IMG/VR virus record: IMGVR_UViG_3300034072_000647
Strand: one strand, 5' to 3'
DNA: 64,000 nucleotides
Source of the DNA: a virus
Lineage: Duplodnaviria > Heunggongvirae > Uroviricota > Caudoviricetes
The notes beneath the pieces are model-generated. The model saw nothing but the letters and a program-made list of their open reading frames with translations. It ran no database searches and was not told the DNA's origin. The translations under genes and the position numbers were made by a program. Shown here one piece after another: positions 1,319-16,843 of this stretch. Each line of letters opens with the position of its first letter. The stretch's first letter is position 1.

Positions 1319-1393
1319 TGGAGCGGGTAGCGGGAATCGAACCCGCGACTTCTCGTTGGCAACGAGGAGTTTTACCAATTAAACTATACCGGC
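1319..1393 (-). tRNA. tRNA-Gly(GCC)
   Basis: CCA end, T-arm GGGTTCGATTCCC, anticodon loop TTGCCAA. Confidence 0.6.
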
Positions 1394-1394
1394 G

Positions 1395-1643
1395 TTAAAT
1401 CAAGTTTCGAATATCGTACTGCGTACCGTTAACCAATACCGCAGGAGGAAGAAGTTTGCTAATCTCTTCGTTAGACAAAGTATCCACTGCTAGCAGTTCT
1501 CCTTCTCGGGCTGAGAGTTTCTCTAATCGATCGGCCATGATCTTTCTCTCAGAGCGAAGATCAATAACTATATTAGCTACAGCATTTAGGAGAATTAGCC
1601 GATTAGACTCCATACGCTCTTGTAGAATATGATCTAAAGTCAA
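1395..1643 (-). CDS. Hypothetical protein (82 aa)
   Basis: ORF on the minus strand between tRNA genes. Confidence 0.45.
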   Translation of the reverse strand: MTLDHILQERMESNRLILLNAVANIVIDLRSERKIMADRLEKLSAREGELLAVDTLSNEEISKLLPPAVLVNGTQYDIRNLI

Positions 1644-1661
1644 TGTTATGTCCTTTAAAAT

Positions 1662-1754
1662 TGGAGGTGAGAGTCGGTCTCGATCCGAAGACGGGTATTA
1701 GCCGCCCGAACTCCTTAGCAGGGAGACCCAGCACGCCTGTCTGGTTCACTCACC
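1662..1754 (-). tRNA. tRNA-Ser(GCT), long variable arm
   Basis: Anticodon stem CTCC/GGAG with loop CTGCTAA and a long variable arm. T-loop ATCGAGA has A54. CCA end. Confidence 0.6.
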
Positions 1755-2000
1755 AAGTGGTTTGTAGTTAGCCTCGAAGAAAGCGCTATCAACTGAATAA
1801 CGGCTGCCATCGGGGTTAGTAATAACATATTCGCCCGGCTTCATGTATTTAGTTCCGTGAATACTATCTACTAGAATCCAGGAAGATCGAGGATCTACCT
1901 TAGGGCTTCGTGGTCCATCGGACTGTACGCCGGCTGGAATTTTGTCTTCATCCGGTAGAAACTGCTCAGCTTCAACTTCGATGGTCATTGCGTACTTCAA
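1746..2000 (-). CDS. Hypothetical protein (84 aa)
   Basis: ORF whose stop overlaps the start of the downstream macro-domain gene. Confidence 0.5.
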   Translation of the reverse strand: MKYAMTIEVEAEQFLPDEDKIPAGVQSDGPRSPKVDPRSSWILVDSIHGTKYMKPGEYVITNPDGSRYSVDSAFFEANYKPLGE

Positions 2001-2455
2001 TAGGGAACCTCATCGTCTAGAGTATAAACAATTGGCTGAAAGTTGGTGGACTCCTCTTCGATAATAGAGGACATAATTCGCCAATCGCCGCCTGCTAATC
2101 CGCATCCAATTAGAGGAAAGCTAACAGGCTCTGAAATGTGTTGATTTATAGAACGTAAAGCCCTACGAATAGCCAGGTAATCAACATATACATGCTTGTC
2201 ATAACCGTAGTTCTTCTGGCCGATTATGTTAAGAATAACATGATCGCCACAGTCAGCGCCTATAACGAAACCAAGCGGCAATCCGCTCTTTTCATAGCGC
2301 TCTCTATAGACTGTAAAGGCTTTAGGGTATTTATTTCGGATAGCCTTAGCTACACCGGAGTTCATGACACCTTGAGCATTACAACAGTGTGCAATGTACA
2401 AACTATCAGTAGTTAGGATATCACCATAACGGTATTCAATTTTCATATAATCCAC
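1997..2455 (-). CDS. Macro domain protein (ADP-ribose binding or processing)
   Basis: Contains the motifs NAQGVMNSGVAKAI and IGCGLAGGDW typical of macro/Appr-1-p domains. Confidence 0.8.
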   Translation of the reverse strand: MDYMKIEYRYGDILTTDSLYIAHCCNAQGVMNSGVAKAIRNKYPKAFTVYRERYEKSGLPLGFVIGADCGDHVILNIIGQKNYGYDKHVYVDYLAIRRALRSINQHISEPVSFPLIGCGLAGGDWRIMSSIIEEESTNFQPIVYTLDDEVPY

Positions 2456-2547
2456 GCAAGAATAAAGGCAAAAGACATTCCCAGCGTAAATATAATTACC
2501 GCTGCCGCACCTAAACCTGGTTCTGAATAATTACTAAAGTCCATAAG

Positions 2548-2623
2548 TGGTACTCCTGGAGGGATTCGAACCCCCGACCCGGCCGTTATGAGCGGCTGGC
2601 ACTGACCGCCGTGCTACAGGAGC
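2548..2623 (-). tRNA. tRNA-Met or Ile2 (CAT)
   Basis: 76 nt. Anticodon loop CTCATAA, T-arm GGGGTTCGAATCCC, CCA end. Confidence 0.7.
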
Positions 2624-2626
2624 GTG

Positions 2627-2815
2627 TTACTTATTCCACCATTCTTTCGCAAGAATGTATAGATACCAAGGCCCCCAAAGGAACCAAAAGACTGCAACTA
2701 GAACCTGCAGAATATTGAATTGCGCGCCTTGCTTAGCAGCCTCAACGCGGATTAGACCAAAGAAGAGAATTGCTACAACTGCCCAAATTCCAAAGATAAT
2801 CCAAAGATAATCCAT
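2627..2815 (-). CDS. Small membrane protein (2 TM helices)
   Basis: Hydrophobic ORF. The start was placed at an internal Met that follows a GGAGAAG SD. Confidence 0.5.
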   Translation of the reverse strand: MDYLWIIFGIWAVVAILFFGLIRVEAAKQGAQFNILQVLVAVFWFLWGPWYLYILAKEWWNK

Positions 2816-2830
2816 AACTTCTCCGTAAAG

Positions 2831-2910
2831 TGGTGCCCCGGGAGGGACTCGAACCCCCATGTGTCCAATTAGCTTTCTCCTGATTAGAAGTCAGGCGGCA
2901 TACCGAGGCA
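2831..2910 (-). tRNA. Atypical tRNA-like (anticodon hairpin CCTGA-CTTCTAA-TCAGG gives UCU, Arg?)
   Basis: Clear T-arm and CCA end. The D-arm is aberrant or short and there is a 20-nt variable region. Confidence 0.4.
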
Positions 2911-2983
2911 TGGTAGTCTAGGCGGGAGTCGAACCCGCAGAACGCAGATTAGGAGTCCGCATCTCGGTCCAGTCGACTAGACC
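2911..2983 (-). tRNA. tRNA-Arg(CCT)
   Basis: T-arm GCGGGTTCGACTCCCGC, anticodon loop CTCCTAA, CCA end. Confidence 0.55.
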
Positions 2984-3435
2984 ACTGATTCAATCTCGCT
3001 ATAAAACAGCATATACTTAGCCATTCGTTTGAAGTCCTTTTCCGTTACGCCCTTCAAACGACGAATATCGCTGTTATGCTTGAGGTCAGCCTTTTTAACT
3101 TCCCTAGCATCCTTGCTAGCGAGAACCTTAGTCTTATAGCTGTTATAAGACTCGCCCGGCATCTTAGTGAGATTGGTAATACCAAGAATTACGCGAGGCG
3201 TCATTCCAATATCAACCAAATCCTCTACCGTAGCATCAGTATCCTCAAAAAGGTCGTGACCGACAGCAATACACTGAAGCTCTTCATCGTCAGAGTTCAG
3301 AATATGCAATACTGCAAGACAGTGTAGAATATAAGGCTTACCGCCTTTATCGAATTGACCATTATGCTTATCGACCGCAAAGTGGATCATTTTACCAAGC
3401 ATTTCACCCTTTTTCATATCTGTCTCCTTATTCAA
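2977..3435 (-). CDS. HD-domain phosphohydrolase
   Basis: Contains the H...HD metal-binding motifs HCLAVLHIL and GHDLFEDT. Confidence 0.8.
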   Translation of the reverse strand: MNKETDMKKGEMLGKMIHFAVDKHNGQFDKGGKPYILHCLAVLHILNSDDEELQCIAVGHDLFEDTDATVEDLVDIGMTPRVILGITNLTKMPGESYNSYKTKVLASKDAREVKKADLKHNSDIRRLKGVTEKDFKRMAKYMLFYSEIESVV

Positions 3436-3535
3436 CTAATATACGAAAAACGGGGATTAAAGTCAAGAAATAAATTCACAGATTGCCATTGGGTTTGGAC
3501 AGTCGCGTTTACCAATTTCGCCACCCCAGCATAAG

Positions 3536-3812
3536 TGGTGCAAGGGGCAGGACTCGAACCTGCAAGTCTTTCGACAACCGTTTGATTATTCCAATAAAAA
3601 AGTGCTGTTAGCAATCTTAGTATAAGAACAGCGTATTAAAGGCCTCTTGCAGAGGATGTCTACCGTTTCAACACTGGATTGCATTTACATCGCACCAGGT
3701 AGGATTCGAACCTACACCTTTAACACGCCGAACATCTGGAGCTCCTGACAGGACTCGAACCTGCATGTGATCCAATTAACCTTTCAACTCGTTCGTAGCG
3801 AGAGGGTTTACA
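3536..3812 (-). tRNA. Three atypical tRNA-like elements (T-arms at 3548, 3700, 3752; third has ACG anticodon-like hairpin)
   Basis: GGTTCGAGTCC / GGTTCGAATCC T-arm motifs with acceptor-like ends. The D/anticodon regions are irregular. These may be degenerate genes or need a covariance-model fold. Confidence 0.3.
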
Positions 3813-3818
3813 GAAGCA

Positions 3819-4283
3819 TTAACCTGTAGCGAAGGACTTGAACCTAACACAGTGGTCAGCAGCATGAGAGGCTGCCCAGCCGTGGGGCTTGATAACGGGC
3901 TTGAAGCCCATTCCTAGGACCCAGCCAACGGCTTCGCTTACCGCGACGTTGGACTTGTGCTTAGGGTCGTTATTAAGATCCAAGTGAATCTCAAGTGGAC
4001 GATCTCCAAGAACTTCGGTAATTTGTGTAGCTGCTTCAAGAGCGTAATTCGTCTCCATTAGCAACCTATTTTTAAGACCTTGAGCACCTTGCCCGTAGTC
4101 ACGCAAAATCTGAATGTCGTAGAAAATACGGCAGCCATGACGACTATCGCGGTGAACTACAACTACAGTAGCGTAACGAGCGTACCACTCGTCGTTCTTC
4201 TTAAACCTGATGGAGTCACAGCCAATGTAGACGCTAGAGTCTTTGCTGGAATTCCGTACTTCCTCTTTAGCCTCTTCCCACAT
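3819..4283 (-). CDS. RNase H-like fold protein (tentative)
   Basis: The start was placed at an internal Met (MWEEAKEE) after a GGAGAA SD. A DSx and ETNYALEAA pattern resembles the RNase H catalytic core. The ORF-track start would overlap tRNAs. Confidence 0.45.
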   Translation of the reverse strand: MWEEAKEEVRNSSKDSSVYIGCDSIRFKKNDEWYARYATVVVVHRDSRHGCRIFYDIQILRDYGQGAQGLKNRLLMETNYALEAATQITEVLGDRPLEIHLDLNNDPKHKSNVAVSEAVGWVLGMGFKPVIKPHGWAASHAADHCVRFKSFATG

Positions 4284-4306
4284 TGGGATTCTCCTTGTTG
4301 TTAAAA

Positions 4307-4377
4307 TGGTAGCGGGGCAGGAGTCGAACCTGACTGAAGGGTTATGAGCCCGACATGCTACCGTTACAATACCCCGC
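4307..4377 (-). tRNA. tRNA-like, CAT anticodon loop (Met/Ile-like), weak anticodon stem
   Basis: T-arm CAGGTTCGACTCCTG, loop CTCATAA, acceptor GCGGGG/CCCCGC. Confidence 0.4.
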
Positions 4378-4391
4378 AAACTGTGAAATTC

Positions 4392-4469
4392 TGGCGAAGG
4401 TTCAGAGAGTCGAACTCTGTCCTCAAGGTTTTGGAGACCCGCGGCTTAACCGTTTGCCCTAACCAACGC
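4392..4469 (-). tRNA. tRNA (anticodon unresolved)
   Basis: T-arm CAGAGTTCGACTCTCTG and a CCA end. The acceptor pairing is partial. Confidence 0.4.
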
Positions 4470-4546
4470 TGGTACTAGAAGAGGGACTCGAACCCTCATA
4501 CGAACCGTTTTGAGCGGCCCAGGTCTACCATTCCCGTCATTCTAGC
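4470..4546 (-). tRNA. tRNA (anticodon unresolved; loop CTCAAAA candidate)
   Basis: T-arm GAGGGTTCGAGTCCCTC, acceptor GCTAGAA/TTCTAGT, CCA end. Confidence 0.5.
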
Positions 4547-4646
4547 ATGAAACTTGGTCCTGATTGCCCATCACTAGCTCAGGACAAGCTAGTTGCAAGA
4601 GGTTTTCTGCATCACCTTCCGTGGTATCGGGGTCTGAGCCCGAATC

Positions 4647-4721
4647 TGGTAGTTCCAGAAGGAATCGAACCTCCATCTAGCGATTATCAGTCGCTTGCAC
4701 TAGCCGTTATGCTATGGAACC
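4647..4721 (-). tRNA. tRNA-Ile(GAT)
   Basis: Perfect anticodon stem AGCGA/TCGCT with loop CTGATAA. D-arm GCAT...GTGC, T-arm GGAGGTTCGATTCCTTC, CCA end. Confidence 0.75.
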
Positions 4722-4728
4722 ATTTAAC

Positions 4729-4801
4729 TGGTGGAGAAGATGGGTAACGATCCCACACGTTCCTGATTGCAAGTCAAGACGCTGTCCCATACAGCTTCCC
4801 C
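4729..4801 (-). tRNA. tRNA-Ala(TGC), non-canonical T-loop ATCGTTA
   Basis: Acceptor GGGGAAG/CTTCTCC and CCA end. Anticodon hairpin CTTGA-CTTGCAA-TCAGG. T-arm TGGG-ATCGTTA-CCCA. Confidence 0.5.
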
Positions 4802-4975
4802 ATTAATGTGATAGGCTTACTCGATCTCAGATCGGTCGGGGATTGAACCCGTTACATCACATGGCCAACTGCCGTAAAAATCTGTGAGGTCTTTGATACA
4901 TTCACGTTAGCTGGCACTTAACGCTTTCCCAACCTGCCAGGGTCAGCGGCTATTGCCGTCAAAGATACCTCGAAC

Positions 4976-5049
4976 TGGTGGAGAGCCGGGGTGACGATCC
5001 CCGCTCATCAACTCTGCCAGAGTTAAGTGAGCACCAACGCTCGCTCCCC
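4976..5049 (-). tRNA. tRNA-Ala(GGC)-like, non-canonical T-loop ATCGTCA
   Basis: Acceptor GGGGAGC/GCTCTCC and CCA end. D-arm GAGC-GTTGGT-GCTC. Anticodon loop CTGGCAG. Confidence 0.45.
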
Positions 5050-5210
5050 GTTAAACTGCGTAACCTAGCTGACCTAGAAGTGCTGCTAGAGCAATGACTC
5101 CAACGATCAACTTGGCGATCCAATTAAAAGGATTTGGAACCGGAATACGGTCAATAATCCAAAAGGCAAAATAAACCACAACTGCAATAATTAGCAGTGC
5201 AATTAGAACA

Positions 5211-5417: not shown

Positions 5418-5419
5418 GG

Positions 5420-5812: not shown

Positions 5813-5813
5813 G

Positions 5814-5896: not shown

Positions 5897-5972
5897 TGGC
5901 GAGCCTGACGGGTAACGATCCCGCTTTGTGTGATTGACAATCACATGTGTTTACCATAATCACCACAGGCCC
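5897..5972 (-). tRNA. tRNA-Asp(GTC), non-canonical T-loop ATCGTTA
   Basis: Acceptor GGGCCTG/CAGGCTC. Anticodon TGTGA-TTGTCAA-TCACA. T-arm GCGGG-ATCGTTA-CCCGT. CCA end. Confidence 0.55.
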
Positions 5973-6483: not shown

Positions 6484-6572
6484 TGGAGGAGAGAGTCGGT
6501 CTCGATCCGAAGGGACTTTCGCCACCCGATGCGCTTTCCAGGCGGTCCCCGTACCTAACGGGTTCACTCTCC
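6484..6572 (-). tRNA. tRNA-Ser (long arm; anticodon GGA tentative)
   Basis: Paralog of the 1662-1754 gene with the same acceptor/T-arm (T-loop ATCGAGA). Anticodon loop CTGGAAA on a short stem. Confidence 0.5.
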
Positions 6573-7395: not shown

Positions 7396-7470
7396 TGGTA
7401 GCCCGAAAGGGTTTCGATCCCTCTTCTCTTGCTTGAGAAGCAAGCGTCCTAGCCACTAGACGACCGGGCC
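7396..7470 (-). tRNA. tRNA-Glu(CTC), T-loop ATCGAAA
   Basis: Perfect anticodon hairpin CTTGC-TTCTCAA-GCAAG. Acceptor GGCCCGG/TCGGGCT. CCA end. Confidence 0.6.
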
Positions 7471-7640: not shown

Positions 7641-7715
7641 TGGTACTCCTAAGGAATTCTGAGATCCTAACCTTCTGCGTGTCGAGCAGATGCTCTACCT
7701 TTGAGCTATAGGAGC
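7641..7715 (-). tRNA. tRNA-Val(GAC)-like with unusual T-loop
   Basis: Acceptor GCTCCTA/TAGGAGT. D-arm AGCTC...GAGCA. Anticodon TCTGC-TCGACAC-GCAGA (C33). CCA end. Confidence 0.45.
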
Positions 7716-8551: not shown

Positions 8552-8624
8552 TGGTCAGGAGCCGGAGTAACGATCTCCGCCTTTCAAAGGTCCAAGCCTC
8601 GACTGCGTGCCCAGCGCGCCCCTG
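8552..8624 (-). tRNA. tRNA-like element without convincing anticodon stem (T-loop ATCGTTA; internal palindrome CCTTTCAAAGG)
   Basis: Acceptor CAGGGGC/GCTCCTG and a CCA end, but the central region does not fold as a standard anticodon arm. It could be a pseudo-tRNA or a tRNA-mimic RNA. Confidence 0.35.
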
Positions 8625-8966: not shown

Positions 8967-10436
8967 TTACTGCCAGTCGTATCGTTCAATTTCGACTGCC
9001 TTACGCATGATAGCGTCAGGGGTGATCTTATCAAGGTCAACTGCAAGAATGGACTTCATGATAGCTGGCGAGAAACCAGAAACCAGAGCCACACCAGCCT
9101 CGTTGAACTTAACCGGCTTGTTACCGCGATCAGCGATGTTCCAGTAAACGATGACAGGAGTCTCGTAACCGGCATCCTGGTACATGCGAGCAATCATTGC
9201 CTGAGCACGGTCGTCGTAACGACCAGGATTGAACTGCATGTCAGACATGATAAGAATAATCTTAGGCATGTCCTCTGCGGGAACTCGATTGCTCATTGCG
9301 TGTGCAAGGATAAGATCGAAAACCGAGCGAAGGTTAGTGCTACCCCAAGCAGCAGAGCAAACAGCCGTAAGGCTTTCAGCAAGGCTGTTAGGGTTGTGAA
9401 CTACGAACTTGGCCTGATCGTTGAAGGAGATAGAGAGATTCTTGAAAGCTCCCTTTGACTTGCTTGCAACATACATACCCAGCGAAGCTGCGACGTCTGC
9501 GCAAGTAATCGTACCGGAGCCACCAGCTGGAGCGCCCATGGAACCGGAGTTATCAACGACAGCGATGACGTTCTGATCGTTCATGTAGTCAGGCAGAGCC
9601 TTCCACATGGCGGTAGCAACTTCATCGTCCTTGTAGTGCTGCGAGCGTCCATAACCATAACGGTTATAGCTAAGATCCTGCGCACCACCAATCATCTTGG
9701 TGATATCGTAAGGATAAACAGCCGAAGCGTTAACCTTCGCGACCTTAGGATCCCCCTTCTTCAGAGCTTCCTTGAAGGCACCGAACGCTTCTGGAGCATT
9801 ACGATGGAATGCGGTCATGTAGCGAGACATTGCGACCGAAGGAACGTGGGAGAAATTAATTCCATTCCACTCCTTCTTACACATGTCAGTCTCAACGACG
9901 TTCGTAAGGCCAACAAGCAGCTTACGGTACTCCTTAGGAGAAAGACCGAAAGTGTTGCGAAGCTCTACAGCCTTCGGACCCTTACGAGGCATCCACTTAG
10001 CCGCAAGACCATTTCCTTCGGAAAGAGCCTTAGCGATAAGATAGAAAGCCTTACGCTTAACAGCAGGGTTAGTGAAGATAAGCAGGTCGTCAAAACGGCC
10101 AATCTCTACCGTGTTGTCAAGAAGTTTGGACTCTGCAAGGATTGCAGGGTCATTCTTCTCAAGCCAAAGCAGGATATCTCGAAAGATCTTACGCTCACCA
10201 GCACCGCCGCGAATGTCACGAGCGTACTGAGCAATACGAATTGCGAGGTCTGCGTCCTGAGCGTAAGCTGCCTCAAAAGCAGGAATTACGTTCTGTCCGC
10301 GCATTGCGCCAACCGAACCGAAGAAGTCGACCAGAGCGCTAGAGGTAGTTGCAAAAGCACGCATACCGTTCTGCGTACGTGCAATTACAGGAGAGTGGCC
10401 GGCGGAGCGGCCGAGAGTGTTAACAAAAGTATTCAT
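8967..10436 (-). CDS. Ro60/TROVE-like protein with C-terminal vWA domain (Rsr-like)
   Basis: The C-terminal half has a vWA MIDAS motif (VVDNSGSM). The N-terminal half resembles the TROVE domain: FFGSVGAMRGQ...LAIRIAQYARDIRGG matches the Ro60 FGSEGGTYY...ALIRLIEDGRG region. Confidence 0.7.
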   Translation of the reverse strand: MNTFVNTLGRSAGHSPVIARTQNGMRAFATTSSALVDFFGSVGAMRGQNVIPAFEAAYAQDADLAIRIAQYARDIRGGAGERKIFRDILLWLEKNDPAILAESKLLDNTVEIGRFDDLLIFTNPAVKRKAFYLIAKALSEGNGLAAKWMPRKGPKAVELRNTFGLSPKEYRKLLVGLTNVVETDMCKKEWNGINFSHVPSVAMSRYMTAFHRNAPEAFGAFKEALKKGDPKVAKVNASAVYPYDITKMIGGAQDLSYNRYGYGRSQHYKDDEVATAMWKALPDYMNDQNVIAVVDNSGSMGAPAGGSGTITCADVAASLGMYVASKSKGAFKNLSISFNDQAKFVVHNPNSLAESLTAVCSAAWGSTNLRSVFDLILAHAMSNRVPAEDMPKIILIMSDMQFNPGRYDDRAQAMIARMYQDAGYETPVIVYWNIADRGNKPVKFNEAGVALVSGFSPAIMKSILAVDLDKITPDAIMRKAVEIERYDWQ

Positions 10437-10731: not shown

Positions 10732-10941
10732 TTATCCCTTTTGCTTTTTAGCTAGCTCATCGTCTAGCTTTTTCCATTCCTTGTCGAAGTCTTTCTTTTT
10801 ATTACCAGACAAGGTAGTAGTGTAGGCCTCAGTCCACTCGATTGCATCCCGCAAATACGGAGTAGGCTTGCCCAAAATCTTATTAGTCTCATCCATCATG
10901 ATCGCTCGTTGCATACGATCCCAGAAGAACTGTGCACTCAT
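10732..10941 (-). CDS. Hypothetical protein (69 aa)
   Basis: ORF. Confidence 0.45.
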   Translation of the reverse strand: MSAQFFWDRMQRAIMMDETNKILGKPTPYLRDAIEWTEAYTTTLSGNKKKDFDKEWKKLDDELAKKQKG

Positions 10942-11084
10942 TTCAGTATACCTTTCGACAGAGTTGAAGTCTGTTGCCTTACCATTAGGCTAATTTTCCT
11001 AGAGCGGAAAATATTGGAATTGAACCAATATAATTGTTTTGCTGCTAGTATACTTTATATACTTTAACAGGTTTCATAAAAGAC

Positions 11085-11212: not shown

Positions 11213-11290
11213 GGGCCGCCAGGCCAGCTCCTCATAATATGGAGAGGAGCGAAGGAATCGAACCTTCTAGTTTTGTTTGCTGTTACAATT
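11213..11290 (-). tRNA. tRNA-like element (T-arm GAAGGTTCGATTCCTTC plus adjacent hairpins; unresolved)
   Basis: Has a T-arm and a CCA-like end, but the upstream part is AT-rich without a clear cloverleaf. Confidence 0.3.
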
Positions 11291-11292
11291 CT

Positions 11293-11505
11293 TTAAATGG
11301 GAGAGAATTTTATCTTCCCAGCTTTCCACAATTGAAGTTGAGTATTAAAATTCGTATTTAATTGTTCTGATCTAGACTTAAGATGCGCTATAATTATTAT
11401 GTCATCATAACTAGCATCTTCCGGATCTTTACCTAGTATCTCCGCGCACTTACGCTTTAACCTGAATATGTCATCTAATTCAGAACGTGTATAGTGAAAA
11501 TACAT
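11293..11505 (-). CDS. Hypothetical protein
   Basis: ORF trimmed to an internal Met to avoid overlap with tRNA-His. Confidence 0.4.
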   Translation of the reverse strand: MYFHYTRSELDDIFRLKRKCAEILGKDPEDASYDDIIIIAHLKSRSEQLNTNFNTQLQLWKAGKIKFSPI

Positions 11506-12254: not shown

Positions 12255-12274
12255 TTGATGTTCCTTTTTAATCT

Positions 12275-12601: not shown

Positions 12602-12617
12602 AATAACCTTTCTAAAC

Positions 12618-12912: not shown

Positions 12913-12988
12913 TGGTACTCCAGGTGAGACTTGAACTCACAAATTTACGGTTCTTAGCCGATTGCCTCTGCCGTTTGGCTACTGGAGC
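12913..12988 (-). tRNA. tRNA (anticodon unresolved; loop CTAAGAA on 3-bp stem)
   Basis: Acceptor GCTCCAG/CTGGAGT, D-arm GCC..GGC, T-arm GTGAGTTCAAGTCTCAC, CCA end. Confidence 0.5.
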
Positions 12989-13046
12989 ATGTATATCCGG
13001 CCGCCCCCAAGCATGGATCTTTATACCCCGAAAGGAGCCCATCAAA

Positions 13047-13529
13047 TTAGAAGCGGAAACCTACGCCTGCAAGCAGGGCATGGCTACCGGTATTACGGTC
13101 AAACTCAGAGTAATTGTACTGAGCCTTGATATAGGTAACGTCGCTAATCTTGCGCTCAACACCGGCACCTACCTTGAAGCCATCAAGCTTACGACTGAAA
13201 ACGTCGCGATAGTTATCGTAACCAGCATGGACATAGCCAAGAGTGCGTGGAGTGAAAGCGTAACCAAGACGTGCGCTAGCACCAATCATGCGCTCCTTTT
13301 CGAAGAAATTCGAGCTATTGGCTTCGACACCGATAGTCACTCGGTCGCCGAGCGGAGCATCGACACCGACTGCGGCTCCGTAAACCACGTCGTTAGCGTC
13401 TGGGCTGTTCTGAATGTCATTATATCCGGCAGTTACTTCGGCACGAACACCAGTGAAGGCAGCATTGGTCTGCGCAATGGCAGGGGTAGTGGCGAGGGCA
13501 GCAGCCGCTGCAAGTGCAATAAACTTCAT
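13047..13529 (-). CDS. Outer-membrane beta-barrel protein (OmpA/Omp25/opacity family-like) with signal peptide
   Basis: Starts MKFIALAAAAALATTPAIA after an AGGAGA SD. It has alternating amphipathic strands and ends in GVGFRF with a C-terminal Phe. Confidence 0.75.
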   Translation of the reverse strand: MKFIALAAAAALATTPAIAQTNAAFTGVRAEVTAGYNDIQNSPDANDVVYGAAVGVDAPLGDRVTIGVEANSSNFFEKERMIGASARLGYAFTPRTLGYVHAGYDNYRDVFSRKLDGFKVGAGVERKISDVTYIKAQYNYSEFDRNTGSHALLAGVGFRF

Positions 13530-13567
13530 TTTGTCTCCTAATGTGATGAGGAAGTACTCCTCGGAAC

Positions 13568-13642
13568 TGGAGCGGGCGACGGGAATCGAACCCGCTCTAT
13601 GTACGGTTTGGAAGACCGACCGCATACCTTATGCTCGCCTGC
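13568..13642 (-). tRNA. tRNA-Gly(TCC)
   Basis: Anticodon GCGGT-CTTCCAA-ACCGT. T-arm AGCGGGTTCGATTCCCGT. CCA end. Confidence 0.6.
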
Positions 13643-13742
13643 ATTAAACTTGTCCCTCTTTAACTCGTTTCCTCGACTGATTGCTAGCATCAGTATCGCT
13701 TATCGAGCGAGCGGGGAGGCTCAGCAGCCGTAGCTGTAAAAC

Positions 13743-13818
13743 TGGTCTAGGAGACAGGACTTGAACCTGCAACCCCCTGCTCCCAAAGCAGGTGCGCTAC
13801 CACTTGCGCTACTCCCAG
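13743..13818 (-). tRNA. tRNA-Pro(TGG)
   Basis: D-arm GCGCAAGTGGTAGCGC. Anticodon CCTGC-TTTGGGA-GCAGG. T-arm GCAGGTTCAAGTCCTGT. CCA end. Confidence 0.75.
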
Positions 13819-14273
13819 ATGAAAAAACTGGACCAGTTCACCTATAACACCTCACTGAGTGATGCGTGCTCTGTGTTTCCTGCTGCACTGGTAAGCAGCT
13901 CCCCCGAGAAGGCGGCACATTAGGTTCTCATCCTAATGGCTGGGGCGGTCCGGATGCCTCGCCGCTCTACCGAGTAGTAGCACAGCTTTATTGGCAGAGC
14001 AGGATACCGGCTCAATTTAGTCCCGAATACAATCAGTCCGGGCAGATGAATAGCGCTTTTAGGACCATCACCCAATCTCAAGTGGCTAGAGTGCCGTCCA
14101 CTCTCTAGCCCGCTAGTCCCATGTCAACGGAATGACTAGCCCCGCATCTATTCGTAGAGCGACCGGATGAACCTAACGCATGTTCATCACAACGTTATCA
14201 AGAGTTGCAATAAGCTCGTAAACTTCTGCATTGGGGCGGGTCTTCAAGTCCCGACTCCTCTCTTGATAAACTC

Positions 14274-14302
14274 ATTATAATTCAAGTCAGTTTCAATGTC
14301 AA
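14274..14302 (-). promoter_or_regulatory. Consensus promoter TTGACA-N17-TATAAT driving an ORF-free 430-nt segment and downstream tRNAs
   Basis: Minus sense: TTGACAttgaaactgacttgaatTATAATgag. Confidence 0.55.
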
Positions 14303-14318
14303 GAACTATTTTTCTAAC

Positions 14319-14395
14319 TGGTAGACCGGGTGGGGTTCGAACCCACATACGCGCGGATTAAAAGTCCGCCGTTCCGCCTATTGAACTACCGGTCC
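14319..14395 (-). tRNA. tRNA-Lys(TTT) second copy
   Basis: Anticodon GCGGA-CTTTTAA-TCCGC. T-arm GTGGGTTCGAACCCCAC. CCA end. Confidence 0.7.
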
Positions 14396-14601
14396 ATGAT
14401 GACTGTTCAACCTCGGCTATAGCTGGAACTTAATCCAGCTTATTAATTACAATCTTACTGTATTCAGGATTTTTATAGTCGACCGCCATTTCAAATATCA
14501 CCTCCCCTAGTGAGTTGAATAGTTTGAAATTTGAAATTTTCAGCGGCTCAAACTCAGGGCTGAACCAGCTTTTCAACCTTTGCCACATAAAGCACCTAAA
14601 A

Positions 14602-14677
14602 TGGTAGACGAGGTGGGGTTCGAACCCACGACCTAAGGATTAAGAGTCCCGCGCTCTGCCAACTGAGCTACACGTCC
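14602..14677 (-). tRNA. tRNA-Lys(CTT)
   Basis: D-arm TAGCTCAGTTGGCAGAGCG. Anticodon loop CTCTTAA. T-arm GTGGGTTCGAACCCCAC. CCA end. Confidence 0.6.
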
Positions 14678-14862
14678 GTGAAATATTCCTTTTGAAGCTG
14701 CCAATAGGTCAGCTCATTTTCTGCGTCACAAAGTTCATAATGAACCGAATACCACTCTTCGGACTCTTCTTCATAAGTGCTAAGTTCATTAGACAACTCA
14801 TGAACAAGACGTTCAGCTAAGTCTTCATTAGCTTCAATCTCTTCCCAAGTATGATCGTTCAT
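14668..14862 (-). CDS. Small acidic protein (64 aa)
   Basis: ORF downstream of a consensus early promoter. Confidence 0.5.
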   Translation of the reverse strand: MNDHTWEEIEANEDLAERLVHELSNELSTYEEESEEWYSVHYELCDAENELTYWQLQKEYFTDV

Positions 14863-14914
14863 TGCTATCTCCGCTCTTGATGCCTCATTATAACAAAGGC
14901 AGTAGTGAAAGTCA
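14862..14914 (-). promoter_or_regulatory. Consensus early promoter plus conserved leader GAGGCATCAAGAGCGGAGA (representative of 20 or more copies)
   Basis: Minus sense: TTGACTttcactactgcctttgtTATAATgaggcatcaagagcggagatagcaATG. Confidence 0.65.
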
Positions 14915-14931
14915 AGAACTATTTCAGTAAT

Positions 14932-15009
14932 TGGTGAACCGACGAGGATTTGAACCTCGATCCCAAGGATTAAGAGTCCCGGTATTAGCCTATTATTAAG
15001 ATCGGTCCA
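14932..15009 (-). tRNA. tRNA with CTCTTAA anticodon loop (Lys-CTT-like)
   Basis: T-arm CGAGGTTCAAATCCTCG, CCA end, AT-rich D-arm. Confidence 0.5.
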
Positions 15010-15169
15010 TTATCTCTCGTTGCTGTTTAACCGCCACAACGATGGCGTGATCTGCTTTTAGATTACCTGTTCCGTGACAGGCACAGCAGATGCGAAATTT
15101 GTCTTTGAATTTCGAGCCACGCTTAGGCTTGAATAAGTTACCACTTCCGCCGCATTTGTGACACAACAT
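14996..15169 (-). CDS. Small zinc-ribbon protein (57 aa)
   Basis: Unlisted ORF MLCHKCGGSGN...CCACHGTGN with a GGAGAC SD and a promoter upstream. Confidence 0.45.
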   Translation of the reverse strand: MLCHKCGGSGNLFKPKRGSKFKDKFRICCACHGTGNLKADHAIVVAVKQQREIMDRS

Positions 15170-15280
15170 GGTAGTCTCCGCTCTTGATGCCCAATTATAA
15201 CAAGGTTGGCGGTCAAAGTCAAGAACTAAATTTTAAGAGGTTGAATCCGTTTTAATTACAGAGATTCATCCCCGAAAGCT

Positions 15281-15316
15281 ATAAAAATAGCCGAGGCTCC
15301 GTCGAGAACCTCGGCT
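15281..15316 (-). terminator. Intrinsic terminator (minus strand)
   Basis: AGCCGAGG...CCTCGGCT hairpin followed by ATTTTTAT in minus sense. Confidence 0.55.
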
Positions 15317-15324
15317 ATAATAGA

Positions 15325-15395
15325 TGGTAGCAGACCTAGGTAACGATCCTAGCTAGTCCAGGATATGAGCCCGAACCCCTCCCTGAGGGACTGCC
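15325..15395 (-). tRNA. tRNA-like (T-loop ATCGTTA; anticodon unresolved)
   Basis: Acceptor GGCAGTC/GTCTGCT with a CCA end. The internal fold is unclear. Confidence 0.4.
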
Positions 15396-15398
15396 ACA

Positions 15399-15644
15399 TT
15401 AGCCTTCAGACTTTTCGTAGGTCGCTCGATCTACGCAGATCATGCGATTCAACTTCTTGTCTTTAATTAGAAAAGGCTTATCACTATTACAGTTTGGTTC
15501 ACTGTTATACACAGTTTTATGATATTCACTATCTAGTATTACTGCATTAGGCCCTGCGGTAACAATTACGCGCGGGTCTGCATTGGCGGGACTGCCAGCA
15601 GCCAACCCTAGTAAAAACAGTCCTGTGAGTAACTTATTAAACAT
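15399..15644 (-). CDS. Small secreted protein (signal peptide)
   Basis: Starts MFNKLLTGLFLLGLAAGSPANA. Confidence 0.5.
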   Translation of the reverse strand: MFNKLLTGLFLLGLAAGSPANADPRVIVTAGPNAVILDSEYHKTVYNSEPNCNSDKPFLIKDKKLNRMICVDRATYEKSEG

Positions 15645-15659
15645 ATGATAATCCTTATA

Positions 15660-15730
15660 TGGAGCCGACATTGGGGTTCGAGCCCAACTAAACGACGTAC
15701 GAAGCCGTTGTCCTCGCCAGAGGTGTCGGC
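15660..15730 (-). tRNA. tRNA-Thr(CGT)
   Basis: Perfect acceptor GCCGACA/TGTCGGC. Anticodon ACGGC-TTCGTAC-GTCGT. T-arm TTGGGCTCGAACCCCAA. CCA end. Confidence 0.55.
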
Positions 15731-15736
15731 ATGAAA

Positions 15737-15829
15737 TGGAGGAAGGCTGGTGGTGTCGATCCCCAACCGTATCGCTACGAGTCCACTAGTTTTCAAGACT
15801 AGGCCTGGGGCCGCCCAGGATAACCTTCC
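15737..15829 (-). tRNA. tRNA-Ser(TGA)-like, long variable arm
   Basis: Acceptor GGAAGGT/GCCTTCC and a CCA end. Perfect anticodon hairpin CTAGT-CTTGAAA-ACTAG. Atypical T-arm with an ATCGACA loop. Confidence 0.5.
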
Positions 15830-15830
15830 G

Positions 15831-16034
15831 TTAAGCTGTAATTGCGATGACCTTATCGCGAACGCGGGCAGCGCGCTCAATCTCGCTAGCGCGGGCATCT
15901 ACACCAGCACTGAGCTTGACAATGGTTTCTTGGTCTTTCACGTTCTTGGCATTCTCAGCGTCGATATAAGTTTCGAGATCACGCTGAACCTTGCTGAAGG
16001 CTCCAAGAATATTATCAAGACTACGATTGAACAT
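15831..16034 (-). CDS. Small coiled-coil protein
   Basis: Started at an internal Met. Confidence 0.45.
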   Translation of the reverse strand: MFNRSLDNILGAFSKVQRDLETYIDAENAKNVKDQETIVKLSAGVDARASEIERAARVRDKVIAITA

Positions 16035-16060
16035 TAACTTACCTTTCCGTTGTTGAAAAA

Positions 16061-16137
16061 TGGATCCCCGCGTAGGACTCGAACCCACACTCACTAGGGC
16101 CAAAACCTAGCCGCCTTACCCGATAGCGCAACGGGGA
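16061..16137 (-). tRNA. tRNA-Gln(TTG)
   Basis: Anticodon CTAGG-TTTTGGC-CCTAG. T-arm GTGGGTTCGAGTCCTAC. CCA end. Confidence 0.65.
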
Positions 16138-16143
16138 ATGGTG

Positions 16144-16320
16144 TTAGCGACTTACGAAAGCACTAACACCTGCGATGCTCACCCCGAAAACGAGGAAAAT
16201 CAACGCTAGAATTAGGAATAGAATAATAGGCCAGAAGATGAGCAACAGCCAACTGGTGGCAATGACGCCTACGATCTTGAGAATAATCAAAACAAGCCAA
16301 ATAACGCCAACAATACTCAT
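16144..16320 (-). CDS. Small hydrophobic membrane protein (58 aa)
   Basis: Unlisted ORF MSIVGVIWLVLIIL... Confidence 0.4.
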   Translation of the reverse strand: MSIVGVIWLVLIILKIVGVIATSWLLLIFWPIILFLILALIFLVFGVSIAGVSAFVSR

Positions 16321-16338
16321 ATTTATCCCCCTATAAAC

Positions 16339-16413
16339 TGGTACTCACGCAGGGACTCGAACCCCGATAGGCCGCTAATCAGGCGGCAGCCTTAGCCATT
16401 AGACGACGTGAGC
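16339..16413 (-). tRNA. tRNA-Ile(GAT)-like second copy
   Basis: Acceptor GCTCACG/CGTGAGT. Anticodon GCCGC-CTGATTA-GCGGC. T-arm CGGGGTTCGAGTCCCTG. CCA end. Confidence 0.55.
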
Positions 16414-16766
16414 ATGTGTGCATTCGCACGAAACTAGCCGGTTTGAAGTACATGCACCGGAAACTTAACCATCCGCGGGCGATAACTCCCGTTCCATATT
16501 TATACAGCCAAGGAGGTACTTTGGCTGTTGAGGCCGTCCGGAGACGGTTCCACCATCTGGGCCGTGTGTCGCTCCCAGAATAGATCAAATATTTTACAAG
16601 CACGATCATCCTATGCTTGGGGCCGGTAGGGTGGAGCGCACCCTGGCTTTTGCTAGACGTATTGCAAAGTACGATCTCTTCACTCATCAGGTAACGACCC
16701 ATGTTAGTTACTTTACCAAGCCCGTACTTGGTGTGTGGGGAAGCTGTTCCCACCTTCTAGCAAAAC

Positions 16767-16843
16767 TGGTACACGACATAGGATTCGAACCTATCATTTC
16801 CCACTTGTAAGGAGGGCGATTTCACCAAGCTATCTCGTCGTGC
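16767..16843 (-). tRNA. tRNA-Val(TAC)
   Basis: Acceptor GCACGAC/GTCGTGT. Anticodon loop CTTACAA. T-arm ATAGGTTCGAATCCTAT. CCA end. Confidence 0.6.

What the first reader, a model, noticed from the sequence alone, without database searches (positions are those of the whole stretch)
1319..16843. About 40-gene tRNA cluster with a subset carrying non-canonical A54 T-loops (ATCGTTA / ATCGAGA / ATCGAAA)
At least 40 tRNA or tRNA-like genes lie on the minus strand, most with encoded CCA ends. The tentative anticodons cover most amino acids, with duplicates for Lys, Ile, Thr, Arg, Ala, Leu, Ser, Glu, Gln, Gly and Val. Nine of them replace the universal T54 with A. Five of those also have U at position 58, which looks like a covarying reverse-Hoogsteen pair. 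These are Ala(TGC) at 4729, Ala(GGC) at 4976, Asp at 5897, and the elements at 8552 and 15325. The two Ser paralogs, Glu(CTC) and Ser(TGA) have A54 with A58. These could be functional variants that escape host T-loop-directed nucleases or modification enzymes, or they could be tRNA mimics. Several further elements (2831, 3536-3812, 4835-4900, 11213) are tRNA-like but fold abnormally.
Basis: seen in the sequence. Interest (0 to 1): 0.6.

Follow-up and report, generated by a model that had tools for sequence, protein, structure and literature searches.

The report
Phage tRNAs with swapped T-loop pair
A T5-like phage carries about 45 tRNA genes. In nine of them the near-universal U54·A58 T-loop pair is replaced by A54·U58 or A54·A58, a compensated variant that proves common in phage tRNA arrays and rare in cellular genomes. 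Two further arginine tRNAs have their D-arm strands rearranged around the anticodon arm.

Summary
Positions 1319-16843 (minus strand) hold about 45 tRNA or tRNA-like genes, nearly all with encoded CCA. Exactly nine have A54: five are A54/U58 (4729, 4976, 5897, 8552, 15325) and four are A54/A58 (1662, 6484, 7396, 15741). ARAGORN and Infernal both place A at position 54, so this is not a register artefact.

The variant is not peculiar to this phage. In 171 viral loci (1,919 unique non-seed tRNAs), 54/58 is U/A 1744, A/U 112 and A/A 37 (Fisher 4e-142). A54 goes with A60, and the sister variant G55 goes with A18. Isolated phages of Xanthomonas, Stenotrophomonas, Ralstonia, Mesorhizobium and Synechococcus carry it; T5 does not. 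In cellular genomes the same motif is mostly chance hits.

The variant arose repeatedly within isoacceptor families. I read these genes as working tRNAs with an internally compensated alternative elbow that lacks U54 and A58. Whether this evades host enzymes that read the T-loop is untested.

The three Ser genes are the known (8/4) allo-type. I found no description of the A54·U58 swap.

By-product: 2831 and 3737 belong to a large, unannotated phage family of tRNA-Arg with permuted D-arm strands.

The parts
1319..16843 (-). tRNA array of about 45 tRNA or tRNA-like genes interspersed with small ORFs, in a distant T5-like phage
   Evidence: Phage type: A1 protein about 41% and TerL 47.6% identical to T5-like phages.
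1662..1754 (-). tRNA-Ser(GCU), (8/4) allo-type, T-loop ATCGAGA (A54, A58, A60)
   Evidence: ARAGORN -ps 96.7; 8-bp acceptor (with a U·U) plus 4-bp T-stem. No Rfam tRNA hit at E<=10.
4729..4801 (-). tRNA-Ala(UGC), G3:U70, no 8/9 linker, compact D-arm, T-loop ATCGTTA (A54·U58, A60)
   Evidence: Infernal 25.6 bits, below gathering score, with A aligned at position 54.
4976..5049 (-). tRNA-Ala(GGC), G3:U70, compact D-arm, T-loop ATCGTCA (A54·U58, A60)
   Evidence: No Rfam tRNA hit.
5897..5972 (-). tRNA-Asp(GUC), otherwise a canonical cloverleaf, T-loop ATCGTTA
   Evidence: ARAGORN 108.6; Rfam 45.2 bits; Infernal alignment puts A at 54 and U at 58. 91% identical homologue in L148.
6484..6572 (-). 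tRNA-Ser(GGA), (8/4) allo-type, T-loop ATCGAGA
7396..7470 (-). tRNA-Glu(CUC), canonical cloverleaf, T-loop ATCGAAA (the same A54 and A60 as eukaryotic initiator tRNA)
   Evidence: Rfam 54.1 bits; ARAGORN 107.4. 81-91% identical homologues with the same loop in L002, L007-9, L082 and Mesorhizobium phage Cp1R7A-A1.
8552..8624 (-). tRNA-Pro(UGG) with C1:G72/A73, compact D-arm, T-loop ATCGTTA. A canonical Pro(UGG) paralogue lies at 13743-13818.
   Evidence: No Rfam hit.
15325..15395 (-). CAU-anticodon tRNA (Met or Ile2 type) with a 5-bp D-stem and 3-nt loop (AGG), 3-nt variable loop, T-loop ATCGTTA
   Evidence: Found only by the structural scan and MFE fold. Missed by ARAGORN and Rfam.
15741..15829 (-). 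tRNA-Ser(UGA), allo/Sec-like: 8-bp acceptor, 6-bp D-stem with tetraloop, T-loop ATCGACA in a T-stem with one conserved mismatch
   Evidence: Rfam tRNA-Sec 44.9 bits, below its gathering score of 47. Orthologue in L001 with a compensating T-stem change.
7641..7715 (-). tRNA-Val(GAC)-like with C33 and T-loop CTCAGAA (C54·G58, A60)
   Evidence: Rfam 49.1 bits
15660..15730 (-). tRNA-Thr(CGU)-like with compact D-arm, T-loop CTCGAAC (C54·A58)
2831..2909 (-). tRNA-Arg(UCU) of the 'permuted D-arm' class: acceptor, UAU, strand x, anticodon hairpin, NGAAA, strand y, D-loop-like UAAUUGGACACAU, T-arm
   Evidence: Rfam tRNA 38.8 bits; missed by ARAGORN. Family of at least 88 distinct phage sequences with x/y covariation.
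3737..3817 (-). tRNA-Arg(ACG) of the same permuted D-arm class (x=ACC, y=GGU)
   Evidence: Rfam 24.9 bits
8967..10436 (-). 489-aa DUF2828/DUF7788 protein (phrog_850, 'RNA-binding protein') inside the array. Context only, used as an anchor to collect related arrays.
   Evidence: It is present in only 10 of 120 motif-anchored loci, so it is not tied to A54.

Best explanation
The nine genes are genuine, translation-competent phage tRNAs with an alternative, internally compensated elbow.

What changes. The intraloop 54·58 pair, which stacks on G53-C61, is kept but its two bases are exchanged (A54·U58). In four genes it sits at the purine-purine form A54·A58, the form known from eukaryotic initiator tRNA. 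In both forms the usual pyrimidine at position 60 becomes A.

What stays. U55, C56, G57 and the D-loop G18/G19 are unchanged, so the outer face of the elbow (G19·C56), which ribosome and RNase P use, and the L-shape should be preserved.

Evolution. The likely mutational path is U54·A58 with A60, then A54·A58, then A54·U58. It has been taken many times independently in phage tRNA arrays.

Direct chemical consequence. These tRNAs cannot carry m5U54 or m1A58. By analogy with yeast initiator tRNA, they probably also keep U55 unmodified.

Inferred, not shown (about 0.35). Phages retain the variant because it makes these tRNAs independent of, or invisible to, host factors that read the T-loop bases. 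Candidates are TrmA, TruB, TrmI and T-loop-cutting tRNases.

The three Ser genes additionally have the known (8/4) allo-tRNA architecture.

The confidence given (0.6) is for the whole statement. The core claim alone, working tRNAs with a compensated alternative T-loop, I put at about 0.85.
For: Register and fold:
- ARAGORN and Infernal agree on A54.
- MFE folds are cloverleaves.

Identity elements:
- G3:U70 in both Ala genes; C1:G72/A73 in Pro; anticodons form complete Ala, Asp and Ser decoding sets found nowhere else in the array.

Covariation across phages:
- 54/58 is U/A 1744, A/U 112, A/A 37, U/U 2 (Fisher 4e-142).
- A54 has A60 in 122 of 150 cases, against T or C in 1681 of 1746 U54 tRNAs.
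- G55 goes with an AG rather than GG D-loop in 44 of 51 cases, against 52 of 1868 for non-G55 tRNAs (7e-55).
- The independent count tool gives UA 128, AU 18, other 4, with no one-sided change; slid controls pair in at most 61% of cells against 97.9%.

Comparable quality to canonical tRNAs:
- A54 tRNAs are 98% CCA-encoded and have the same median of 21 paired positions.

Spread:
- 23 of 27 protein-anchored arrays contain at least one A54 tRNA (13.8% of their tRNAs).
- 73 of 80 viral motif hits are called tRNAs inside arrays.
- Isolated phages X1, DLP6, RSP15, Cp1R7A-A1 and BUCT-ZZ01 carry them.

Recurrent origin:
- Within nine isoacceptor families the closest A54/U54 pairs are 68-92% identical outside the loop. 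One example is Lys TTCGAAA versus ATCGTAA on identical stems.

Rarity in cells:
- Only 19 of 120 genome hits are tRNAs. Most of those lie in dense tRNA arrays on MAG contigs or are allo-tRNA(UAU)-like.
- T5 has none.

Literature:
- U54 is described as universal except in the eukaryotic initiator, which has A54·A58 (PMC7912444).
- Yeast tRNAi has an A20/A54/A60 elbow with unmodified A54 and U55 (PMC10602860).
Against: - There are no expression, charging or modification data for any A54 phage tRNA.
- The host is unknown, so host T-loops could not be compared.
- The adaptive step rests on one precedent from an interbacterial toxin, not from a phage defence.
- Only about 14% of array tRNAs carry the variant, and most tRNAs in this same phage keep U54. 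A general escape strategy would be expected to be more complete.
- Five of the nine window genes also have compact or irregular D-arms and score below Rfam's tRNA threshold, or are not reported at all. Their function is therefore less secure than that of Asp and Glu.
- A swapped A54·U58 pair is not among the trans WC/Hoogsteen variants seen in solved structures (PMC2615604), so its geometry is unknown.
Confidence: 0.6

Rival explanations
1. Near-neutral structural drift. Phage tRNAs are under relaxed constraint because host tRNAs back them up and modification and quality control are not needed. An equally stable alternative T-loop (A54·U58/A60) therefore appears and persists without any selective benefit.
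For: - Other tertiary pairs are also swapped in the same data set: U8·A14 to A8·U14 in 88 tRNAs and G18·U55 to A18·G55 in 44. Rarer 54·58 combinations also occur (C·A, G·G, C·G).
- A54 tRNAs do not form one clade.
- Only a minority of tRNAs per array carry the variant.
Against: - The same three-position solution recurs independently in at least nine isoacceptor families and is kept across very divergent phages (Demerecviridae-like, Ackermannviridae, Kyanoviridae, jumbo phages).
- One-sided intermediates other than A·A are almost absent.
- The distribution is strongly biased by isoacceptor: Ile-GAU 44% and Val-GAC 58%, against Pro and Ala about 2%.
- The A54 gene is usually the only copy of its anticodon in the locus (262 cases against 47).
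Confidence: 0.3
2. Non-translational tRNA mimics, decoys or decaying pseudogenes. The A54 elements would bind or titrate host factors, or be remnants, rather than decode.
For: - Five of the nine are missed or scored below threshold by Rfam's tRNA model.
- Four have irregular D-arms.
- Mukai et al. found that most allo-tRNA(UAU) species were inactive in E. coli (PMC5389517).
- T5 carries 'tRNA-like stable RNAs' of unknown function in its tRNA region.
Against: - Stems are intact with compensatory changes. Identity elements are present (G3:U70, C1:G72/A73) and CCA is encoded in 98%.
- The anticodons fill exactly the Ala, Asp and Ser gaps of an otherwise complete set.
- Asp and Glu pass Rfam at 45-54 bits.
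- The elbow contacts G18/G19 to U55/C56 are retained, and they co-vary when changed.
Confidence: 0.07
3. Host matching. The host's own tRNAs for these isoacceptors carry A54, and the phage copies simply mirror them.
For: A few A54 tRNAs lie on long MAG contigs (for example L199, L241). The host of this phage is unknown; the tmRNA tag ANDN... hints at an alphaproteobacterium.
Against: - The motif is mostly chance in 185,579 genomes (101 of 120 sampled hits are not tRNAs). The true hits sit in dense arrays of 13-23 tRNAs per 8 kb, typical of phage or mobile DNA.
- Carrier phages infect unrelated hosts: Xanthomonadales, Burkholderiales, Rhizobiales and cyanobacteria.
- A review states that U54 is universal outside eukaryotic initiators (PMC7912444).
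Confidence: 0.04

Closest known systems
(8/4) tRNA-Ser and allo-tRNAs of bacteria and phages (Mukai et al. 2017, NAR, PMC5389517)
   Same: The three Ser genes (1662, 6484, 15741) have an 8-bp acceptor plus a 4-bp T-stem, a long D-stem with a small loop, a long variable arm and Ser anticodons. They sit in a phage tRNA cluster, as that paper describes for alphaproteobacterial phages. Allo-tRNA(UAU)-like genes recovered from bacterial genomes here also carry ATCGTTA.
   Different: The main text of the paper never mentions the T-loop. Six of the nine A54 genes here are ordinary 7/5 class I tRNAs (Ala, Asp, Glu, Pro, CAU). The discriminator of the window's Ser genes is U73, whereas the X1 and DLP6 Ser genes have G73.
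Eukaryotic initiator tRNA-Met elbow (A20/A54/A60, A54·m1A58; PMC10602860, PMC7912444)
   Same: A54 together with A60. Glu-CUC has ATCGAAA with A54, A58 and A60, the initiator's non-canonical T-loop positions. In the yeast initiator A54 and U55 are unmodified.
   Different: The host domain is bacterial. The tRNAs have elongator anticodons, no A20, no A1:U72 and no initiator anticodon-stem G:C run. Most phage members go one step further, to U58, which is not reported for initiators.
T5 tRNA gene region (NC_005859)
   Same: Same phage lineage and the same layout: a minus-strand array of tRNAs with encoded CCA, interspersed with small ORFs, homing-endonuclease-like genes and tRNA-like RNAs of unknown function.
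   Different: All 25 T5 tRNAs have T54. This phage has nearly twice as many tRNAs, plus (8/4) Ser, A54 loops and permuted-D Arg genes.
Phage tRNAs that evade tRNA-targeting defences through anticodon-loop changes (van den Berg et al. 2023, PMC10264068)
   Same: Phage-encoded tRNA variants that differ from host tRNAs at otherwise conserved positions.
   Different: That work concerns anticodon loops and does not mention the T-loop or D-loop. No nuclease is known that would select for the T-loop change seen here.
T-loop / UA_handle motif (PMC2615604)
   Same: A trans pair between loop positions 1 and 5 stacked on a closing G-C pair, with two bulged nucleotides.
   Different: In solved structures the pair is U:A in 92% of cases, with C:A, A:A, G:A, C:C and G:G as the rest. 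A:U is not listed. In phage tRNAs A:U is the second most common form.

Membership tests
Bacterial-type elongator tRNA (Rfam RF00005) | Cloverleaf that scores at or above the curated gathering score (29 bits) | tested here: inconclusive
   Met by Glu-CUC (54.1 bits) and Asp (45.2 bits). Ala-UGC scores 25.6, below threshold. Ser-UGA hits tRNA-Sec at 44.9 against a gathering score of 47. There is no tRNA hit at E<=10 for Ser-GCU, Ser-GGA, Ala-GGC, Pro-8552 or CAU-15325. ARAGORN of the 9 at default settings and 7 of 9 when relaxed.
Bacterial-type elongator tRNA (Rfam RF00005) | Conserved T-loop T54-Psi55-C56-R57-A58 with Y60 | tested here: not met
   A54 in all nine; U58 in five; A60 in all nine. 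U55, C56 and G57 are retained.
Bacterial-type elongator tRNA (Rfam RF00005) | Amino-acid identity elements and a 3' CCA | tested here: met
   G3:U70 in both Ala genes; C1:G72 plus A73 in Pro; long variable arm in the Ser genes; NCCA encoded in all nine. Charging itself cannot be tested with these tools.
(8/4) allo-tRNA / tRNA-Ser (Mukai 2017) | 12-bp acceptor branch split 8/4, long D-stem with small loop, long variable arm | tested here: met
   Ser-GCU and Ser-GGA: 8-bp acceptor with a U·U at pair 7, and a 4-bp T-stem. Ser-UGA: 8-bp acceptor, 6-bp D-stem with tetraloop, and a 4-bp T-stem with one mismatch conserved in the L001 orthologue. This applies to those three genes only, not to the six 7/5 genes.
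Eukaryotic initiator-type elbow | A54 and A60 together with A58 | tested here: met
   ATCGAAA (Glu-CUC), ATCGAGA (Ser x2) and ATCGACA (Ser-UGA).
Eukaryotic initiator-type elbow | A20 in the D-loop, CAU anticodon with three G:C pairs, A1:U72 | tested here: not met
   The Glu-CUC D-loop AGUGGCUA has C at position 20. The anticodons are elongator types and 1:72 is G:C. The loop therefore resembles the initiator elbow, but the tRNA is not a member of that family.
tRNA pseudogene or fragment | Broken stems, missing 3' half or lost identity elements | tested here: not met
   All nine have acceptor >=6/7 and T-stem >=4/5 pairs (3/4 in the (8/4) reading of Ser-UGA). Across phages A54 tRNAs have the same median number of paired positions (21) as canonical tRNAs.
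Permuted-D-arm tRNA-Arg (class defined here) | Three-bp helix between the strand after U8-A9-U and the strand after the anticodon hairpin plus GAAA; a D-loop-like UAAYUGGAYA segment before the T-arm; an Arg anticodon | tested here: met
   Windows 2831-2909 and 3737-3817 align with 86 other distinct phage sequences. Pair 11-39 is paired in 88 of 88 (CG 40, GC 29, AU 17, UA 2) and pair 12-38 in 51 of 51. Slid controls pair in at most 52% against 96%. 88 of 91 anticodons are Arg. RNAalifold does not predict the short helix on energy alone.

The most novel reading that the evidence does not exclude
This array shows a systematic phage strategy: rebuilding the tRNA core so that phage tRNAs still fit the ribosome and the synthetases but no longer present the conserved bases or chain topology that host tRNA-directed enzymes and immune nucleases read. 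Three rebuilds are seen here: the swapped 54·58 pair with A60, (8/4) Ser, and tRNA-Arg whose D-stem strands and D-loop are transposed to the 3' side of the anticodon arm. If so, undiscovered bacterial defences that cut or mark the T-loop, D-arm or elbow should exist, and the variant tRNAs are their counter-measure.
Probability: 0.22. Interest if true: 0.85.

Novelty: new variant of a known kind. Interest (0 to 1): 0.7.

Why it matters
U54·A58 is treated as a universal feature of cytoplasmic tRNA, with the eukaryotic initiator as the single textbook exception. Finding that about one in seven tRNAs in many phage arrays carries a compensated A54·U58/A60 loop has several consequences.
- With the parallel swaps at 18·55 and 8·14, it gives a natural mutational scan of the tRNA elbow.
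- It predicts a class of tRNAs that cannot receive m5U54 or m1A58.
- It points to T-loop-reading host factors as a possible battleground between phage and host.

There is also a practical consequence. Standard tools miss these genes. Five of the nine here get no Rfam tRNA hit. The RSP15 Asp gene and the X1 Lys and Ser genes are unannotated. The permuted-D tRNA-Arg genes are unannotated in Streptomyces, Microbacterium and Vibrio phages. Phage tRNA repertoires, and the codon-usage inferences built on them, are therefore underestimated.

[quoted passage not shown] A natural tRNA-Arg with rearranged D-arm connectivity in bacterial viruses would bear directly on that statement.

Tried and rejected
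- Register-shift artefact: rejected.
- A trait inherited from T5: rejected, since all T5 tRNAs have T54.
- A single A54 lineage that radiated by anticodon switching: only weakly supported. The nearest neighbour with a different anticodon is A54 in 13 of 40 cases against a 15% background, and several A54 tRNAs are closest to U54 tRNAs of the same anticodon.
- A functional link between A54 tRNAs and the DUF2828/DUF7788 protein in the array: not supported. The protein is found in 10 of 120 motif-anchored loci. It has no PDB or NCBIfam relative.
- A54 tRNAs as back-up paralogues of canonical copies: mostly not. They are the sole copy of their anticodon in 262 cases against 47.
- Host identification: ARAGORN finds no tmRNA. 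Rfam finds a permuted tmRNA whose tag suggests an alphaproteobacterium. The closest phage proteins are only 41-48% identical, and megablast finds nothing beyond two tRNAs.
- Literature: ten full-text searches found no paper describing A54·U58 T-loops or D-arm-rearranged tRNA-Arg in phages. The library does not hold most subscription journals, so older T5 or T4 tRNA sequencing papers could not be checked.
- The GATC site created by G53-A54-U55-C56: considered and set aside, because the G55 sister variants lack it.
- Elements 3536-3665, 3685-3735, 4802-4975, 10922-10999 and 11240-11327: no homologues in the collected loci and no convincing tRNA fold. They remain unexplained.

Full report
**What the window is.** The window comes from a distant T5-like (Demerecviridae-like) phage. 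It encodes an A1 DNA-transfer protein (54206-55954, about 41% identical to T5-group A1) and a D5-like regulator. Its large terminase is 47.6% identical to that of Vibrio T5-like phages. It also encodes ThyX, NAMPT and a NadR-like NMNAT/Nudix protein. Megablast finds no close relative. As in T5, a long minus-strand stretch holds the tRNA genes, separated by small ORFs.

**Checking the observation.**
- ARAGORN finds 30 tRNAs in 1319-16843 at default settings and 34 when relaxed, all on the minus strand.
- Rfam's tRNA model gives 29 hits at or above threshold, and more at E<=10.
- A purely structural scan (T-arm plus acceptor plus NCCA) gives 36 sites in the range on the minus strand and none on the plus strand. 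Shuffled sequence gives 0-5.
- The union is about 45 genes covering all 20 amino acids, nearly all with encoded CCA.
- Exactly nine have A at position 54. Five also have U58: Ala-UGC 4729, Ala-GGC 4976, Asp 5897, Pro 8552 and CAU 15325. Four keep A58: Ser-GCU 1662, Ser-GGA 6484, Glu-CUC 7396 and Ser-UGA 15741. All nine have A60.
- Infernal aligns Asp and Ala-UGC to the tRNA consensus with A at 54 and U at 58 at maximal posterior probability. No alternative register restores TTCRA.

**Are they real tRNAs?**
- Both Ala genes carry G3:U70, and the Pro gene has C1:G72 and A73.
- Stems are intact and MFE folds are cloverleaves.
- The A54 genes are the only Ala, Asp and Ser tRNAs of an otherwise complete set, and together they cover those codon boxes.
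- The three Ser genes have an 8-bp acceptor and a 4-bp T-stem. Ser-UGA also has a 6-bp D-stem with a tetraloop, which explains its near-threshold hit to Rfam tRNA-Sec. This is the (8/4) tRNA-Ser/allo-tRNA architecture that Mukai et al. reported in bacteria and phages (PMC5389517).
- Ala-UGC, Ala-GGC, Pro-8552 and CAU-15325 have compact D-arms, and some lack the 8/9 linker. Asp and Glu-CUC are otherwise canonical.

**The variant is widespread in phages.**
- I used the DUF2828/DUF7788 protein inside the array as an anchor and collected 48 IMG/VR loci. Of the 27 with at least five tRNAs, 23 contain at least one A54 tRNA. In total 61 of 441 tRNAs (13.8%) have A54.
Of the 80 loci listed, 73 carry an ARAGORN-called tRNA with that loop inside an array (median 13 tRNAs per locus). 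Asp-GUC, Ile-GAU and His-GUG are the most frequent.
- Isolated phages carry such genes too: Xanthomonas X1, Stenotrophomonas DLP6, Ralstonia RSP15, Mesorhizobium Cp1R7A-A1 and Synechococcus BUCT-ZZ01. Some are annotated as ordinary tRNAs and some are not annotated at all.
- T5 itself has none.
Most of these sit in dense tRNA arrays on MAG contigs, and five are allo-tRNA(UAU)-like genes.

**Covariation.** Among 1,919 unique tRNAs from 171 viral loci (seed-motif tRNAs excluded), all:
- 54/58 is U/A 1744, A/U 112, A/A 37, C/A 10, G/G 7, C/G 4 and U/U 2 (Fisher 4e-142).
- A54 is accompanied by A60 in 122 of 150 cases, whereas U54 tRNAs have a pyrimidine at position 60.
- The sister variant G55 (AGCGTWA) occurs with a D-loop AG instead of GG in 44 of 51 cases (7e-55). 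The G18·U55 contact is thus replaced by A18·G55.

On 150 randomly sampled T-arms, the pair-count tool gives UA 128, AU 18 and other 4 for the 54-58 pair, with no one-sided change. Overall pairing is 97.9%, against at most 61% for slid partners. The U8·A14 pair is likewise swapped to A8·U14 in 88 tRNAs. A54 tRNAs are as well paired as canonical ones and as often CCA-ended.

**Origin.** A54 tRNAs are not one clade. Within the Ile, Glu, His, Asp, Thr, Phe, Met and Lys families, the closest A54 and U54 members are 81-92% identical outside the loop (68% for Val-GAC). Some differ essentially by the loop alone:
- Met: TTCGATA versus ATCGATA.
- Lys: TTCGAAA versus ATCGTAA.
- Phe: TTCGATA versus ATCGTTA.

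This indicates repeated conversion along the path U54·A58 with A60, then A54·A58, then A54·U58. The A54 gene is usually the only copy of its anticodon in the locus (262 cases against 47). The variant is strongly enriched in G34 tRNAs: Ile-GAU 44%, Val-GAC 58%, and Asp, His and Thr-GGU 21-24%.

**Mechanism: what is shown and what is inferred.**
- Shown: the 54·58 interaction and the D-loop/T-loop contacts are maintained by compensation, so the elbow is under selection.
- Follows from chemistry: m5U54 and m1A58 cannot form.
- By analogy with yeast initiator tRNA, which has an A20/A54/A60 elbow and unmodified A54 and U55 (PMC10602860): Psi55 may also be absent.
- Inferred (about 0.35): the variant is retained because it uncouples phage tRNAs from host factors that read T-loop bases. 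The only precedent I found for a T-loop-specific tRNase is CdiA-CT E479, which cuts between the conserved T and Psi (PMC9086364). Recent work shows that defences also hit non-anticodon parts of tRNA, namely CCA tails (PMC12851939) and the variable loop (PMC13096335).
- Main rival (about 0.30): near-neutral drift under relaxed constraint.
- Less likely: mimicry or decay (about 0.07) and host matching (about 0.04).

**Comparison with the literature.** A 2021 review of the T-loop calls U54 universal apart from the eukaryotic initiator's A54·A58 and describes position 60 as a conserved pyrimidine (PMC7912444). A survey of this motif in solved structures lists U:A, C:A, A:A, G:A, C:C and G:G but not A:U (PMC2615604). 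The eLife paper on phage tRNA evasion does not mention the T-loop. The (8/4) Ser genes are therefore a known kind. In the searchable literature, the A54·U58/A60 loop in ordinary 7/5 elongator tRNAs appears to be undescribed.

**By-product inside the same coordinates: permuted-D tRNA-Arg.** The family has these properties:
- 88 of 91 anticodons are Arg: ACG, UCU, UCG or CCU.
- The order of parts is: acceptor, invariant U8-A9-U, 3-nt strand x, one nucleotide, anticodon hairpin, N-GAAA, 3-nt strand y, UAAYUGGAYACAU, T-arm, acceptor.
- x and y co-vary. Column pair 11-39 is paired in 88 of 88 sequences (CG 40, GC 29, AU 17, UA 2) and pair 12-38 in 51 of 51. Slid controls pair in at most 52% against 96%. 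Shuffles give 146±5 paired cells against 219 observed.
- The segment after y reads like a D-loop (A14 A15 Y U G18 G19 A20 Y A21, including the ArgRS determinant A20), followed by C-A-U48.

My reading is that the D-stem 5' strand plus the D-loop have been transposed to the 3' side of the anticodon arm. All canonical helices and elbow contacts would be kept, but with different chain connectivity. This is inference from sequence. RNAalifold does not predict the 3-bp helix on energy alone.

ARAGORN misses 90 of 91 of these genes. In Streptomyces, Microbacterium and Vibrio phage records the sites are unannotated; one example is the gap between gp128 and gp127 in the Mildred21 tRNA array. I found no paper describing this class. 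[quoted passage not shown]

**Verdict.**
- The covariation idea is right and generalises to a widespread class of phage tRNAs.
- The 'mimic' alternative is unlikely.
- The 'escape' rationale is plausible but untested.
- The array also contains members of a second, apparently undescribed tRNA architecture.

Noticed in passing
window 2831-2909(-) and 3737-3817(-); also L001, L058, L059, L100, L296-L373, L413:2501-2569: A large phage family of tRNA-Arg genes (ACG, UCU, UCG, CCU), about 80 nt long. The two D-stem strands flank the anticodon hairpin, and a D-loop-like UAAYUGGAYACAU segment (G18, G19, A20) lies just before the T-arm. The x/y helix co-varies: 88 of 88 and 51 of 51 sequences paired, with four pair types. 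ARAGORN misses these genes, and they are unannotated in Streptomyces, Microbacterium and Vibrio phage records.
   Followed up: yes
window 27961-28335(-): A permuted (two-piece) tmRNA: Rfam RF04321, 85.6 bits. The tag reading frame is ANDNDVVAFDEIRLAA*, which resembles alphaproteobacterial tags and hints at the host. ARAGORN does not detect it. The T-loop of its tRNA-like domain is UUUGACU.
   Followed up: partly
window 7641-7715(-) and 15660-15730(-); viral loci generally: Other non-U54 T-loops. Val-GAC has C33 and CTCAGAA (C54·G58, A60); Thr-CGU has CTCGAAC (C54·A58). Across phage arrays C·A, G·G and C·G also occur at 54·58. The tertiary pairs 8·14 (A8·U14, 88 tRNAs) and 18·55 (A18·G55, 44 tRNAs) are also swapped.
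   Followed up: partly
window 3536-3665(-), 3685-3735(-), 4802-4975(-), 11240-11327(-): Intergenic RNAs with a tRNA-like T-arm (TTCGAGT, TTCGAAT, TTCAATC, TTCGATT). 3536 also has an acceptor-like end with ACCA, but none has a complete cloverleaf. No homologues were found in the collected loci. They may be analogous to the 'tRNA-like stable RNAs of unknown function' annotated in the T5 tRNA region.
   Followed up: partly
window 10922-10999(-): A borderline Rfam tRNA hit (29.2 bits) with anticodon-loop sequence CUUCAAC (UCA, opal-reading) and no recognisable T-arm. ARAGORN does not call it.
   Followed up: no
window 34814-34883(-), 35083-35152(-), 35485-35557(-): Three further tRNA-like genes lie 18 kb away from the array. 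One is an ACCA-ended element with a TTCGATT loop. ARAGORN calls the other two tRNA-Ile(UAU) and a tRNA with anticodon UUA (ochre-reading). Neither reaches the Rfam threshold.
   Followed up: no
window 8967-10436(-); L001-L048: A 489-aa DUF2828 plus DUF7788 protein (phrog_850, 'RNA-binding protein') is embedded in tRNA arrays in dozens of unrelated viral contigs. It has no PDB or NCBIfam relative by sequence. A role in tRNA or RNA handling is suggested by context only.
   Followed up: partly
window 21625-23004(-) and 24904-25920(-): NAMPT plus a NadR-like NMNAT/Nudix protein. From memory, this gene pair matches a phage NAD+ reconstitution pathway that counters NAD-depleting defences.
   Followed up: no
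window 1997-2455(-) and 2977-3435(-): A macro-domain protein with weak similarity to the DarG antitoxin, and a small SpoT/RelA-type HD hydrolase. Both lie inside the tRNA array and may act against host defence or against the stringent response.
   Followed up: no
L210, L276, L286, L289, L238 (bacterial genome contigs): Allo-tRNA(UAU)-like genes of about 91-95 nt in bacterial genomes carry the same ATCGTTA T-loop. The A54·U58/A60 loop therefore also characterises at least some of the allo-tRNA group.
   Followed up: partly
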